DNA of 64,000 nt from Candidatus Microgenomatus sp. (GCA_020724805.1 DYGI01000001.1:8934-72933); one strand, 5' to 3'. Positions 53,795 through 57,420 are shown, numbered from the stretch's first letter. Made by a program: numbers and translations. The notes: a model not told the origin generated them from the sequence alone.

Positions 53795-56151
53795 ATCGAT
53801 TTCATTACAAAATTGATGAGCCTATCTTTGACGTACACCACAGTTTTTACTTCGCCCTCCGCGAGCGCACGCCCCACTTTTTCGTCTGCGCGCGCAAGCT
53901 CTTCCGCTTCATGCTTCATGATACCGCGCGTCGCCTCAATCGTCGCGCGGCGCCTCCCATTTACCTGCACCACAAGCGGGAAAGTGTCTTCATGCACCAA
54001 TGCCTCGTCATAGAGAGGCCATTTCTCCCGGTGTATGGATGTGGTATGACCCATACGCTCCCAAAGTTCTTCCGCAAGATGCGGGGCGAACGGGGCGAGC
54101 AGCTTTAAGAACGCTTCACGAACGTCTTCCGAACTTCCCGCCGTTTCCATTTCGTTCGCCAGTATCATAAGGGCCGAAATCGCCGTGTTGTATTGGAACG
54201 CTTCAATATCGCTCGTCACTTTCTTGATCGTCCGATGAAGCGTCCGCATAAGCGGATCGCGTTCCCCCACCGAACCGTTCTGGAATATGCGCCACACACG
54301 TTCGAGAAAACGGACGATGCCTTGAATGCTCGCGTCGCGAAAATCTCCGCCCTGCTCAAAGGGCGCAAGGAACATGAGGTACATTCGAAGCACATCCGCG
54401 CCGTATTTTGAGATGTATTCATCCGGATTCACCACGTTCCCTTTCGATTTTGACATCTTTGCGCCTTCGCTTATCAAAAGTCCGTGCGCGCGAAATTTCG
54501 GAAACGGCTCTTCGAAATGGAGAAATCCGAGATCGTGGAACACCATCGCGATGAAACGCACGTAGAGAAGATGGAGCACGGAATGTTCCGCGCCGCCGGT
54601 ATAGAGATTCACCGGAAACCACTTTTTCGTGATCGCGGGGTCCCATGGGATTTGCTCCCCGCGCACCGAACGCGTCGAAGGATAACGGAGATAGTACCAC
54701 GCCGAATCAAGAAACGTGTCAGACACGTCCGTCTCACGCCTCGCGTCGGCCCCACACCCCGGACATTTTGCGCGATAGAACTCGGGTGCCGATGCAAGCG
54801 GAGATTCTCCTTTCCCTTTGGGGCGAAAATCCTCCACATACGGAAGTTCTACCGGAAGTTCCTCTTCCGGTACTGCGTACCACCCGGGCATTCCTTTTTG
54901 CTCCCCTTTCCCCGCGGCAGCGCACGCCTCGCAAAATATCATGGGAATAGGCACGCCCCAATAACGCTGACGCGAGATGAGCCAATCACGGAGGCGGAAG
55001 TTCGTTTCCCACTTTCCTCCCACTTCCTTCACTACTTTTCTGCCATCCACGAGCGGCGCATCGCTCACCGGCAAATCGAACGCGCGTGCAAAATCTCGGT
55101 CGCGCTCGTCGTGCGCGGGTACGGCCATAATAGCGCCCGTGCCGTAGGTCGCGAGCACATAGTCCGCAATGAAAATGGGGATTTCTTCCTTATTCGCGGG
55201 GTTTATCGCCTTTACCCCCTTGAGCTCTGCGCCGGTTTTTTCACGGCCCTCGGCAATGCGATCGGCTTCGGATTTCCTTGCTGCAGCTTTTACGTATTGT
55301 TCCACCTCAGCGCGATTCTTTATGGGAAGCGTCGCCACGAGGGGATGTTCGGGTGCGAGCACCACGTAGGTCGCGCCATAGAGCGTGTCGGGGCGCGTAG
55401 TAAATACATCAATGGAAAATGGGGAATTGAAAATTGAAAATTTGATAAGCGCGCCTTCACTTTTTCCTATCCAATTCCTCTGGGCTATTTTCACGCGCTC
55501 CGACCAATCTATCTTCTCCAAATTCGCAAGCAACCGGTCCACATATTTCGTGATACGGAAAAACCACTGTTCAAGGTTCTTCATTTCCGCTTCGCTCCCG
55601 CATCTTTCGCACTTTCCCGCAATCACCTGCTCGTCCGCCAGCACCGTCTTACACGAAGGGCACCAGTTCACTGCTTGTTTTTTCCGGTATGCGAGCCCGT
55701 GTTTCCATAATTGGACAAACACCCATTGCGTCCATCGGTAGTATTTCGGATCATAGGTCTCAAGTTTCTCTTCCCATGCGAATCCGTTTCCTATCGCCGA
55801 AAGCTGCTCGTAAAAGCGCGTCTCGGAAATCTTGGCCTGCTTCATCGGATGCGCGCCGATTTTCAGCGCGTAATTCTCGGAATGGATACCAAACCCGTCG
55901 AGACCGATGGGCTCAAACACGTCATATCCTTCCATGCGTTTCTTCCGGCCATAGATGTCGGCGCCGGTGAACGCATACATGTTCCCCACATGAAGCCCTT
56001 CCGCAGAAGGGTATGGGAACATCATGAGGTTGTAGAAAGGCTTTTCCGCGCCGGTGAGATCAGGTTCGTACGTGCGGTCTGCAAACCATCGCTTTTGCCA
56101 TTTCTTCTCTATCGCGCTGAAATCATATCGCTCCGAAGACATATTGTTCAC
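53791..56151 (-). CDS. leuS: leucine--tRNA ligase
   Basis: 786 aa; HVGN (HIGH-type) and KMSKS motifs, CP1 editing domain, Zn-binding Cys. Confidence 0.9.
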   Translation of the reverse strand: MNNMSSERYDFSAIEKKWQKRWFADRTYEPDLTGAEKPFYNLMMFPYPSAEGLHVGNMYAFTGADIYGRKKRMEGYDVFEPIGLDGFGIHSENYALKIGAHPMKQAKISETRFYEQLSAIGNGFAWEEKLETYDPKYYRWTQWVFVQLWKHGLAYRKKQAVNWCPSCKTVLADEQVIAGKCERCGSEAEMKNLEQWFFRITKYVDRLLANLEKIDWSERVKIAQRNWIGKSEGALIKFSIFNSPFSIDVFTTRPDTLYGATYVVLAPEHPLVATLPIKNRAEVEQYVKAAARKSEADRIAEGREKTGAELKGVKAINPANKEEIPIFIADYVLATYGTGAIMAVPAHDERDRDFARAFDLPVSDAPLVDGRKVVKEVGGKWETNFRLRDWLISRQRYWGVPIPMIFCEACAAAGKGEQKGMPGWYAVPEEELPVELPYVEDFRPKGKGESPLASAPEFYRAKCPGCGADARRETDVSDTFLDSAWYYLRYPSTRSVRGEQIPWDPAITKKWFPVNLYTGGAEHSVLHLLYVRFIAMVFHDLGFLHFEEPFPKFRAHGLLISEGAKMSKSKGNVVNPDEYISKYGADVLRMYLMFLAPFEQGGDFRDASIQGIVRFLERVWRIFQNGSVGERDPLMRTLHRTIKKVTSDIEAFQYNTAISALMILANEMETAGSSEDVREAFLKLLAPFAPHLAEELWERMGHTTSIHREKWPLYDEALVHEDTFPLVVQVNGRRRATIEATRGIMKHEAEELARADEKVGRALAEGEVKTVVYVKDRLINFVMKSI

Positions 56152-56175
56152 ATTGTAGCCGACATTCCTAAGCTT

Positions 56176-56219
56176 TGGAAAGAAATTAAAAGCCCCCTGC
56201 CTCCAAAAAGCGCAGGGGG
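56176..56219 (-). terminator. intrinsic terminator / attenuator immediately upstream of leuS start
   Basis: Minus-strand hairpin ccccctgc-gctttttggag-gcaggggg followed by cttttaatttctttcc, ~35 nt before the leuS ATG. Confidence 0.5.
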
Positions 56220-56550
56220 TGATTCGTGCCGCAGGTCCATTTCTCGGCTTTCCGTATAACCGCGCGTGCTGGCACGGAAATTGGGCACCGACGATTCCCG
56301 CAAGAGGGAGTTTAGCTCAACTCTTTTAGCACTCTTTCGCACACGCTACTCAAGCGCAACAACGGGAAGCAGTTTACGACGCGAGGTATCTAATCTTGCG
56401 CCTTCTTCCTGCTACGGTCTCATCCCAGGAATACGTCCTTTGAATGACTTTATATGGGGCTTCTGGCTCAACCGCGACCTGCGTTTCCGCCTTCAGGACG
56501 GATGCACGCTCGTGGAACTGAGTTTAGTTAAGCGCCATGCGGTGGATCCG
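56220..56550 (-). ncRNA. candidate structured leader RNA or small ncRNA upstream of leuS
   Basis: ~330-bp non-coding stretch between tatD stop and the leuS terminator hairpin, with several predicted helices (gacggat...atccgtc, GNRA-capped gcg-GAAA-cgc); no ORF of coding quality. Confidence 0.3.
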
Positions 56551-57420
56551 TCAAGAGATACCAAAGATACGCGCAGCGTTTTCGTTGACCTGCGCCGCCA
56601 TCTTTTCCGTTGACACCTCTTTGAGCTCCGCGAGTTTGCGCACCACTTCCACCACGTACGCCGGCTCGTTACGTTTCCCGCGGTACGGCGCAGGCGTCAC
56701 ATAAGGCGCGTCCGTTTCGGAAAGTATGCGGTCGGGCGGGAGCATTTTTATCACTTCGTCGTAATCGCGGACAAACGTGACGACTCCTCCGAATGTGAAT
56801 GAAAATCCGAGCGCGAGGAGATCGCGTGCTTCCTCTTCCGTGCCGGTAAAAAAGTGGATGATGCCAGGGTTTCCTTCGGTAAGCAACTGGTAGTGCAAAG
56901 TGAGTAGTTTCAGGAGGTCGGGAAATGCGGCGCGGCAATGTATCATGAGCGGCTTTTTGACATCGTGCGCGAATTTTAGATGCGCGATAAAAAGGTCGCG
57001 CTGTTTCTGCTTCGTTGCCTCGTCATTTACGCGGAAGTAATCGAGACCGCATTCTCCGATTGCGACCACGCTTTTCTCGACAGCCAACTTCCCATAAAAA
57101 ACCTCGTCGAACGTCTCCGCCTCACCTCCCACCCCTCGGGCCTGAAGGCCACTCGGCGGGGCCTGAACGGCCTGTTCGCTTGGGTCCACGTATTCAGAAA
57201 CGGAGGCGTGGCTCGGATGCACTCCGATTGCGGCGTAGCAAAGCTCCGGGTAGCTCCGCGCAAGCGCCACAGCCGCTTTGGAGGTCTTTGCGGTGGTCCC
57301 CACATTCACCATGCGTACTCCTGCGTCGCGCGCCCGCACAAGTACCGCATCGCGATCGTCGTCGTACGCGGGAAACTGCGCATGCGTGTGTGCGTCCCAA
57401 TATTGGAACATTGAATCCAT
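56551..57420 (-). CDS. tatD: TatD family metal-dependent hydrolase
   Basis: HxH (DAHTHAQF) and downstream His/Glu/Asp ligands; start at internal ATG (MDSMFQYWD); contains an unusual ~30-aa insertion. Confidence 0.75.
   Translation of the reverse strand: MDSMFQYWDAHTHAQFPAYDDDRDAVLVRARDAGVRMVNVGTTAKTSKAAVALARSYPELCYAAIGVHPSHASVSEYVDPSEQAVQAPPSGLQARGVGGEAETFDEVFYGKLAVEKSVVAIGECGLDYFRVNDEATKQKQRDLFIAHLKFAHDVKKPLMIHCRAAFPDLLKLLTLHYQLLTEGNPGIIHFFTGTEEEARDLLALGFSFTFGGVVTFVRDYDEVIKMLPPDRILSETDAPYVTPAPYRGKRNEPAYVVEVVRKLAELKEVSTEKMAAQVNENAARIFGIS

What the first reader, a model, noticed from the sequence alone, without database searches (positions are those of the whole stretch)
56152..56560. 400-bp structured untranslated region between tatD and leuS, ending in a terminator 35 nt before the leuS start
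No plausible ORF. A strong minus-strand terminator hairpin plus U-tract (56176-56219) sits immediately upstream of the leuS start codon, the classic position of an attenuator. The upstream ~330 nt contains several helices, including a long-range gacggat/atccgtc pairing and a GNRA-capped stem. Candidates are a T-box-like or other aminoacyl-tRNA-synthetase leader riboswitch, or an independent small RNA gene (e.g. 6S/SRP-like) terminating before leuS. By eye I could not match the T-box consensus, RNase P, tmRNA or SRP motifs.
Basis: partly seen in the sequence, partly recalled or inferred. Interest (0 to 1): 0.55.

Follow-up and report, generated by a model that had tools for sequence, protein, structure and literature searches.

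The report
Small RNA mimicking 16S rRNA domain
The spacer before leuS is not a leuS leader but a separate gene for a ~330-nt RNA that copies the fold of part of 16S ribosomal RNA (helices 16-18 with the 530 loop, set in a five-helix junction), the site where ribosomal protein S4 starts ribosome assembly, so it probably acts as a decoy for ribosome-building proteins.

Summary
The 408-nt non-coding gap between tatD and leuS is real, and so is the terminator. The attenuator/T-box reading fails. Rfam finds nothing at E<=10. A conserved promoter-like motif lies between the terminator and the leuS ATG, and relatives that lack the element keep that motif.

The gap holds a ~330-nt structured RNA with its own promoter-like signal and terminator. 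It occurs in 6 of 14 sampled related Parcubacteria lineages, always just upstream of leuS. The structure has 88 pairs, 27 of them with compensatory changes. Sequence identity is 68-79%, against 37-55% at four-fold degenerate sites, and there is no codon periodicity.

A covariance model built only from these six RNAs matches E. coli 16S rRNA 405-546 (helices 16-18) end to end, at 42.6 bits and E=5e-13. The 530-loop pseudoknot is kept and covaries. Five helices meet at one junction in the 16S order, and the equivalents of A509/A510 are invariant. This resembles the engineered 5WJ/deltaH5-14 RNAs that bind protein S4 as tightly as 16S does.

Best reading: a free-standing rRNA-domain mimic that binds uS4 and perhaps other proteins that recognise the 530 loop. 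The binding itself is inferred, not shown. The presence/absence pattern points to repeated loss, so the RNA is dispensable.

The parts
56526..56554 (-). Promoter-like signal of the RNA: -35 TTGACG (56554-56549, overlapping the tatD stop TGA), a 17-nt spacer, then -10-like TTAACT (56531-56526)
   Evidence: TTGAC(G/A/C) lies at the same distance from the RNA in all six homologs. This includes L161, where the upstream gene is divergent, so read-through from tatD is impossible there. The -10 is non-canonical (3 of 6) and the scan did not list it. Its function is inferred.
56186..56519 (-). The ~330-nt structured RNA; the 5' end is inferred at about 56519 +/- 3 and the 3' end lies in the U-tract
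   Evidence: nhmmer and the covariance model find homologs in L161/162, L165/166, L168, L172 and L173. Covariation is, the selection test, and the lack of coding periodicity.
56504..56508 (-). Outer closing stem, 5' strand CGUGC; it pairs with GCACG at 56229-56225
   Evidence: helix 1. The stem is invariant, so it carries no covariation evidence.
56476..56484 (-). h3-like long-range helix, 5' strand ACGCAGGUC; it pairs with GACCUGCG at 56237-56230
   Evidence: helix 3: 9 pairs, 2 with changes on both sides, 98% paired. The h3 label rests on topology only.
56414..56475 (-). h4-like helix (GCGGUU 56475-56470 with GACCGU 56419-56414). It encloses a variable linker and a conserved h15-like hairpin (56447-56420).
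   Evidence: helices 4-6. Sequence similarity to 16S here is weak, so the labels rest on topology.
56368..56413 (-). h16-like hairpin. It has the 16S internal loop GAAGAA/GUAAA, an extended stem and a 9-nt tip loop AUUAGAUAC.
   Evidence: Model R1 aligns this hairpin to 16S 405-436. Helices 7 and 8 covary.
56296..56367 (-). h17-like domain: base helix UCCCGU/GCGGGA enclosing two hairpins
   Evidence: helices 9-11 (9 pairs with double changes). R1 skips the interior when aligned to E. coli h17.
56243..56292 (-). h18-like hairpin with a 530-loop mimic and its 3-bp pseudoknot (bulge GCC with loop CGC) and an invariant AA that matches A509/A510
   Evidence: Local alignment to 16S 511-540 scores 41, against shuffles of 21 +/- 2.4 with a maximum of 31. 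nhmmer gives E=1.9e-4 and R1 gives 42.6 bits. Pseudoknot pair 250-270 covaries between C-G and U-A (helix 13).
56186..56219 (-). Intrinsic terminator: CCCCCUGC...GCAGGGGG followed by UUUUAAUUU
   Evidence: helix 16 (3 pairs with double changes); U-rich tails are present in all six homologs.
56152..56181 (-). leuS's own promoter-like motif, TTTCCA-18-TACAAT. The -10 ends 9 nt before the ATG at 56142, so the leuS mRNA would be nearly leaderless.
   Evidence: The motif is conserved in relatives with and without the element.

Best explanation
The spacer encodes a separately transcribed RNA of about 330 nt that ends at its own intrinsic terminator. leuS then starts from its own promoter.

The RNA is a miniature of the 16S rRNA 5' domain. 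A closing stem leads into a junction of five helices, arranged in the same order as 16S h3, h4, h16, h17 and h18. The h16 internal loop and the h18/530-loop pseudoknot are reproduced almost base for base. The region that corresponds to h5-h14 is missing.

Most likely mechanism (inferred): the RNA acts in trans as a protein-binding decoy for factors that recognise this part of nascent 16S rRNA. The first candidate is the primary assembly protein uS4, which binds this five-way junction. Factors that read the 530 loop may bind as well (uS12, RsuA, RsmG, IF1). Such a decoy would buffer free protein or tune S4-dependent feedback and early 30S assembly.

Shown: the RNA-level conservation, the fold, the match to 16S h16-h18, and the separation from leuS control. 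Inferred: transcription, the exact 5' end, and any protein partner.
For: 1. Six diverged homologs lie at the same site.
2. The structure has 88 pairs with 96% of cells paired, against 33-51% for slid controls. 27 pairs carry changes on both sides, against 2-7, and 0 of 500 shuffles reach this.
3. Purifying selection: the element is 68-79% identical between homologs, while four-fold degenerate sites of leuS and tatD are 37-55% identical. There is no codon periodicity.
4. Covariance model R1, built only from the six RNAs, aligns over its full length to E. coli 16S 405-546 at 42.6 bits, E=4.7e-13. It finds nothing else in 1.26 Mb of loci. The nhmmer profile hits 16S 419-540 at E=1.9e-4.
5. The equivalent of the 505-507/524-526 pseudoknot is kept, with C-G to U-A covariation. 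The A509/A510 equivalents are invariant, the G406 equivalent is invariant, and the U437 equivalent is kept in 5 of 6 (with 16S numbering).
6. Published work (PMC2665224): engineered 16S fragments deltaH6-14, deltaH5-14 and 5WJ bind S4 as well as or better than 16S. H3, H4, H16 and the junction residues are required, and an A509C/A510C double mutation abolishes binding. A review (PMC10931766) states that uS4 nucleates assembly at this five-way junction.
7. Independence from leuS: the -35 box is conserved even in L161, where the upstream gene is divergent. The terminator is conserved. The leuS promoter motif is kept in relatives that lack the element.
Against: - No expression or binding data exist.
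- The equivalents of G404/U405, single substitutions of which abolish Bst S4 binding to E. coli RNA (PMC2665224), read UA here. They are invariant within the family, and the organism's own 16S is unknown.
- That paper found the 530 pseudoknot dispensable for S4 binding. Its strict conservation here therefore points to another or an additional partner.
- The h3, h4 and h15 labels rest on topology. Sequence similarity outside h16-h18 is not significant.
- No rpsD gene and no S4-domain protein lie nearby.
- The element is absent from 8 of the 14 related lineages sampled, interleaved with carriers on the tatD tree, so it is dispensable.
- The -10 box is poor.
- Only six sequences are available, so the covariation statistics are limited.
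Confidence: 0.5

Rival explanations
1. The RNA is a decoy or substrate mimic for something other than S4 that targets the 16S 530 loop/h18 region. Candidates are a modification enzyme (RsuA for pseudouridine 516, RsmG for m7G527), uS12, IF1, a hibernation factor, an rRNA-directed toxin, or an antibiotic that binds the 530 loop.
For: The 530-loop residues are the most conserved part of the RNA (GUGCCAG..GCGGU.AUAC invariant), although the pseudoknot is dispensable for S4 binding (PMC2665224). The tip of the h16-like hairpin is identical to the 16S 790 loop, AUUAGAUAC (second hit, 13.9 bits). The patchy distribution fits an accessory role.
Against: No candidate partner gene is linked to the element. 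The whole five-helix junction is conserved, not only h18. The 790-loop match is short and only marginally significant.
Confidence: 0.22
2. The element is a cis-acting leader or attenuator of leuS, either T-box-like or sensing a ribosomal protein. Transcription would start upstream of the element, and the terminator would be read through conditionally.
For: The element is always directly upstream of leuS and ends in a terminator about 45 nt before the ATG.
Against: No T-box or other Rfam hit appears at E<=10. No conserved alternative pairing with the terminator was seen when reading A7 by eye. A conserved promoter-like motif lies between the terminator and the ATG and is kept where the element is absent. 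Close relatives do without the element.
Confidence: 0.07
3. The element is a non-functional remnant of a partial 16S rRNA gene duplication, that is, a pseudogene.
For: The clear similarity to 16S h16-h18 suggests descent from an rRNA gene. The element has been lost repeatedly.
Against: Its identity of 68-79% contrasts with near-saturated four-fold sites at 37-55%. Compensatory changes maintain the helices and the pseudoknot. It has its own conserved terminator and -35 box.
Confidence: 0.05
4. The RNA is made as the 3' UTR of the tatD mRNA and possibly processed from it, rather than from its own promoter. Its function would be as in the best explanation.
For: In five of the six homologs the element directly follows tatD on the same strand. 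The -35 box overlaps the tatD stop codon, so part of its conservation could reflect coding constraint. The -10 box is weak.
Against: In L161/L162 an opposite-strand gene separates tatD from the element, yet a TTGAAG box sits at the same distance from the RNA.
Confidence: 0.12
5. The spacer encodes a small protein, either on the antisense strand (115-aa ORF at 56266-56613, plus strand) or on the sense strand (64 aa).
For: Open frames exist. A public gene caller placed an 83-aa ORF on the homolog in L173.
Against: There is no third-position bias (3.66/3.66/3.85). The frames are broken by stops and by indels that are not multiples of three in other homologs. Changes are compensatory at the RNA level.
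Confidence: 0.02

Closest known systems
16S rRNA 5' domain, helices 16-18, with the h3/h4/h16/h17/h18 five-way junction (the uS4 site)
   Same: The h16 internal loop GAAGAA/GUAAA matches. So do the h18 stems, the 530-loop sequence, the 505-507/524-526 pseudoknot and the A509/A510 pair. Five helices meet at one junction in the same order. The covariance-model match is full length.
   Different: The RNA is about 330 nt and lies outside any rRNA operon. The h5-h14 region is missing, h16 is extended, and h17 is remodelled into two hairpins. There is an extra closing stem, and the 404-405 equivalents read UA instead of GU. The Rfam SSU model does not match even at E<=10.
Engineered minimal S4-binding RNAs (deltaH6-14, deltaH5-14, 5WJ; Bellur and Woodson 2009, PMC2665224)
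   Same: [quoted passage not shown] Those RNAs bind S4 with nanomolar affinity.
   Different: Those are laboratory constructs made from E. coli sequence. This is a natural gene under selection, and its binding is untested.
Ribosomal-protein autoregulatory leaders that mimic rRNA (B. subtilis rpsD leader, E. coli alpha-operon pseudoknot, the S4 leader motifs of Eckert and Weinberg 2020, PMC7247131)
   Same: The principle is the same: an RNA outside the ribosome imitates an r-protein binding site.
   Different: Those leaders are short, lie in the 5' UTR of the operon that encodes the bound protein, and act in cis. This RNA is domain-sized, has its own terminator, lies next to leuS with no rpsD in the 64-kb window, and matches no Rfam leader.
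6S RNA and the CsrB/RsmZ protein-sponge RNAs
   Same: As a working analogy (from my own knowledge), these are free-standing RNAs that sequester a protein by imitating its natural nucleic-acid ligand.
   Different: There is no sequence or structural relation (no Rfam hit), and the ligand imitated is different.
T-box leaders of aminoacyl-tRNA synthetase genes
   Same: The position upstream of an aaRS gene and the terminator hairpin.
   Different: There is no T-box or specifier features, a promoter-like motif lies downstream of the terminator, and the element is dispensable in close relatives.

Membership tests
T-box leader (RF00230) | Matches the T-box covariance model (stem I/specifier, T-box sequence) | tested here: not met
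   No hit at gathering score or at E<=10 in the window; none at E<=1 in five homologs.
T-box leader (RF00230) | The terminator is the last element of the 5' UTR, with mutually exclusive antiterminator pairing | tested here: not met
   A conserved promoter-like motif lies between the terminator and the ATG, and it is kept where the element is absent. No conserved alternative pairing was seen when reading A7 by eye.
rRNA-mimic ribosomal-protein leader | Imitates the rRNA binding site of an r-protein | tested here: met
   R1 matches 16S 405-546 at 42.6 bits, E=4.7e-13. The pseudoknot and the A509/A510 equivalents are kept.
rRNA-mimic ribosomal-protein leader | Lies in the 5' UTR of the operon that encodes the bound r-protein | tested here: not met
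   The element lies between tatD and leuS and ends in its own terminator. tblastn finds no rpsD in the window, and no S4-domain neighbour is present.
rRNA-mimic ribosomal-protein leader | Is bound by the r-protein | not testable with these tools
   This needs EMSA or filter binding with uS4 from the same lineage.
uS4 binding site (determinants from PMC2665224) | H3, H4, H16 and the junction are present; A509/A510; nt 404, 405, 406 and 437 | tested here: inconclusive
   There are five helices in the right order. AA is invariant, the G406 equivalent is invariant, and the U437 equivalent is kept in 5 of 6. The 404-405 equivalents read UA rather than GU. The h3 and h4 labels rest on topology only.
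Bona fide SSU rRNA gene or neutral pseudogene | Matches the SSU model, or evolves at the neutral rate | tested here: not met
   No SSU hit at E<=10. The element is 68-79% identical against 37-55% at four-fold sites.
Housekeeping RNAs (6S, SRP, tmRNA, RNase P) | Matches the family model | tested here: not met
   Rfam; ARAGORN.

The most novel reading that the evidence does not exclude
This is a new class of bacterial small RNA: a free-standing, domain-scale copy of the 16S rRNA S4-nucleation site. It would have arisen from an rRNA gene fragment and been retained as a trans-acting decoy that titrates early 30S assembly proteins in ultra-small CPR bacteria. If so, it would also be a natural example of an rRNA mimic born by duplication and internal deletion of rRNA rather than by convergence.
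Probability: 0.4. Interest if true: 0.85.

Novelty: new variant of a known kind. Interest (0 to 1): 0.75.

Why it matters
RNAs that imitate rRNA to bind ribosomal proteins are known only as short cis-acting leaders of ribosomal-protein operons. A separately encoded copy of the multi-helix S4 nucleation site, kept under selection, would be different in three ways.

- It would show a new way to control ribosomal-protein homeostasis or 30S assembly.
- It would provide a natural minimal S4-binding RNA to set beside the engineered 5WJ constructs.
- It would document rRNA-gene fragments as a source of regulatory RNAs.

It also warns annotators. Public gene calls have placed a spurious ORF on this RNA (L173).

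The limits are real: only six metagenomic sequences, a narrow clade, repeated loss, and no expression or binding data.

Tried and rejected
- Rfam at gathering score and at E<=10 on the spacer, and at E<=1 on five homologs: nothing. ARAGORN: nothing.
- Single-sequence nhmmer and blastn of the spacer against 160 leuS loci from GTDB genomes and JGI metagenomes: nothing. Homologs appeared only after closer LeuS and TatD relatives were fetched.
- Remnant of a neighbouring gene: blastx against the 220-aa ORF of L081, the 283-aa ORF of L161/L164 and the 186-aa ORF of L001 found no similarity.
- My first idea was a mimic of the decoding centre (530 + 790 + 1400 regions). I dropped it. The co-linear match is to h16-h18, and the 790-like sequence is only the tip loop of the h16-like hairpin.
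- An antiterminator formed by the h3-like 5' strand and the terminator 5' arm is possible in the window sequence. By my reading of A7 it is not conserved in the other homologs.
- Adding an E. coli 'mini-16S' to the alignment with MAFFT gave a poor alignment and was uninformative.
- Sequence similarity of the 5' part and of the h3-like 3' strand to 16S is not significant.
- Viral contigs hold no copy of the element-specific h18 motif.
- Literature searches found no described free-standing 16S 5'-domain mimic. The library is incomplete, so this is not proof of absence.

Full report
**Layout.** All features lie on the minus strand. tatD ends with TGA at 56553-56551, and leuS starts with ATG at 56142 (783 aa). 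The gap is 408 nt. The named best hits of LeuS and TatD are Candidatus Jorgensenbacteria and Brennerbacteria, which are Parcubacteria in the candidate phyla radiation (CPR). Upstream lie a MetRS-like gene and a HAD hydrolase gene. Downstream of leuS lies a 297-aa protein with no Pfam family above the curated cut-off.

**The observation.**
- The terminator-like hairpin and U-tract at about 56219-56186 are real.
- Rfam gives no match in the gap at gathering score or at E<=10. ARAGORN finds nothing.

**Finding homologs.** tatD-leuS synteny is widespread, but the spacer varies from about 26 to about 1090 nt. Distant relatives share no DNA similarity with the spacer. Among close relatives (LeuS 74-83% identical, TatD 72-81%), homologs are present in L161/L162, L165/L166, L168, L172 and L173. 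With the window that makes six distinct sequences. Each copy lies just upstream of leuS.

The element is absent from L163, L164, L167, L170, L171, L174, L176/L177 and L081. On a TatD neighbour-joining tree, carriers and non-carriers interleave. For example, L161 carries it and its sister L164 does not; L172 carries it and its sister L171 does not. Because the position is fixed, repeated loss is the simplest reading, so the element is dispensable.

**It is an RNA under selection.**
- RNAalifold on the six sequences gives 87 pairs, 26 of them with compensatory changes.
- My curated structure has 88 pairs, including a 3-bp pseudoknot. It has 96% of cells paired, against 33-51% when the partners are slid. 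It has 27 pairs with changes on both sides, against 2-7, and 0 of 500 shuffles reach this.
- Element identity is 68-79%, while four-fold degenerate sites of leuS and tatD are 37-55% identical in the same genome pairs.
- Differences show no codon periodicity (3.66/3.66/3.85), and the open frames are not conserved.
- With refined ends, the MFE fold recovers most of the comparative architecture (z = -1.9).

**It is a separate unit from leuS.**
- A promoter-like motif, TTTCCA-18-TACAAT (56181-56152), lies between the terminator and the ATG. Its -10 box ends 9 nt before the ATG.
- The motif is conserved in all homologs. It is also kept in L163, L164 and L167, which lack the element.
- Upstream of the RNA, a TTGAC box sits at a fixed distance in all six sequences. 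In the window this reads TTGACG at 56554-56549, a 17-nt spacer, then TTAACT.
- The box is present in L161 too. There an opposite-strand gene precedes the element, so transcription from tatD cannot supply the RNA. The -10 is poor, and the promoter is inferred.
- I saw no conserved antiterminator when reading the alignment.

The attenuator and T-box reading is therefore rejected.

**What the RNA resembles.**
- A profile of the family hits E. coli 16S rRNA co-linearly at 419-540 (E=1.9e-4).
- The h18-like hairpin aligns to 16S 511-540 with score 41, against shuffles of 21 +/- 2.4 with a maximum of 31.
- Covariance model R1 was built only from the six RNAs and covers 171 positions and 45 pairs. 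It aligns over its full length to 16S 405-546, which is helices 16, 17 and 18, at 42.6 bits and E=4.7e-13. It finds nothing else in 1.26 Mb of loci.

I took the 16S numbering and structure from the Rfam alignment of E. coli 16S. On that basis:
- The h16 internal loop GAAGAA/GUAAA is reproduced.
- The h18 stems and the 530-loop sequence are nearly identical to 16S.
- The equivalent of the 505-507/524-526 pseudoknot is kept, and one of its pairs switches between C-G and U-A.
- The AA that corresponds to A509/A510 is invariant.

Around these helices, a long-range helix (ACGCAGGUC/GACCUGCG, with two covarying pairs) and a second helix (GCGGUU/GACCGU) close a five-helix junction. They occupy the positions of h3 and h4. 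A conserved hairpin sits where h15 would be, and the h5-h14 region is missing. Outside h16-h18 the sequence similarity to E. coli 16S is not significant, so those labels are topological inference.

**Link to function.** uS4 nucleates 30S assembly by binding exactly this five-way junction (PMC10931766). Bellur and Woodson (PMC2665224) built 16S fragments lacking H6-14 or H5-14, and a minimal 5WJ RNA. They found that S4 binds these as well as or better than 16S. H3, H4, H16 and the junction residues are needed, and an A509C/A510C double mutation abolishes binding. The natural RNA has the same design.

Two points count against a simple S4 story. First, the equivalents of G404/U405 read UA, although they are invariant within the family. 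Second, that paper found the 530 pseudoknot dispensable for S4 binding, yet it is the best-conserved part of this RNA. This suggests an additional or different partner, such as uS12, RsuA, RsmG or IF1. No rpsD gene or S4-domain gene is nearby.

**Verdict.** A functional structured small RNA that imitates 16S h16-h18 within a five-way junction is well supported; I put it at about 0.85. That it works as a decoy or sponge for uS4 and related 5'-domain binders is the most likely mechanism, but it is inferred; I put that at about 0.4-0.5.

The rivals are another 530-loop partner, a leuS attenuator, a dead rRNA fragment, biogenesis from the tatD 3' UTR, and a small protein. They are weighed in the rival list.

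I found no description of such an RNA in Rfam 15 or in the searchable literature.

Noticed in passing
window 56142-56181 (minus strand); the same motif in L161-L173: The leuS promoter-like -10 box (TACAAT/TAGAAT) ends only 9 nt before the ATG in every relative. The leuS mRNA would therefore be nearly leaderless, with no room for a Shine-Dalgarno sequence.
   Followed up: partly
window 56386-56394 (tip of the h16-like hairpin): The 9-nt loop AUUAGAUAC with G-C closing pairs is identical to the 16S 790 loop (h24). It is kept in 4 of 6 homologs (L161 and L168 differ by one base, L165 by more). Model R1 gives a second hit on 16S 770-872 (13.9 bits). Whether this is chance or a second mimicry is unexplained.
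   Followed up: partly
L161 2791-2816: In L161 the h17-like domain is replaced by different sequence. Part of it matches the universal 16S 1378-1403 region in 23 of 26 aligned columns, with one 2-nt gap (score 36, shuffle maximum 29). It may be a second rRNA-derived piece. Unexplained.
   Followed up: no
L161 1713-2564, L164 2053-2904, L167 1592-2443 (opposite strand): A 283-aa gene with a hydrophobic, signal-peptide-like N-terminus and no Pfam family is inserted between tatD and leuS in three lineages. It occurs both with and without the RNA element.
   Followed up: no
L173 3533-3784: A public gene call places an 83-aa opposite-strand ORF directly on the RNA. This is probably a spurious annotation. 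LeuS calls of about 850 aa in L170 and L176/L177 look like N-terminal over-extensions.
   Followed up: partly
L172 2790-2921: After the conserved leuS ATG, L172 has about 125 nt that diverge from the other LeuS N-termini and contain inverted repeats. The gene caller starts leuS only at 2919. This may be an insertion, a frameshift or an assembly error.
   Followed up: no
window 613-50625: The first 51 kb of the window hold 18 tRNA genes, singly or in small groups on both strands, and no rRNA gene.
   Followed up: no
L081 1920-3006: In the JGI relative L081 the tatD-leuS gap is about 1090 nt. It holds a 220-aa ORF unrelated to the element or to the 283-aa gene. This spacer seems to be a hotspot for insertions.
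   Followed up: no
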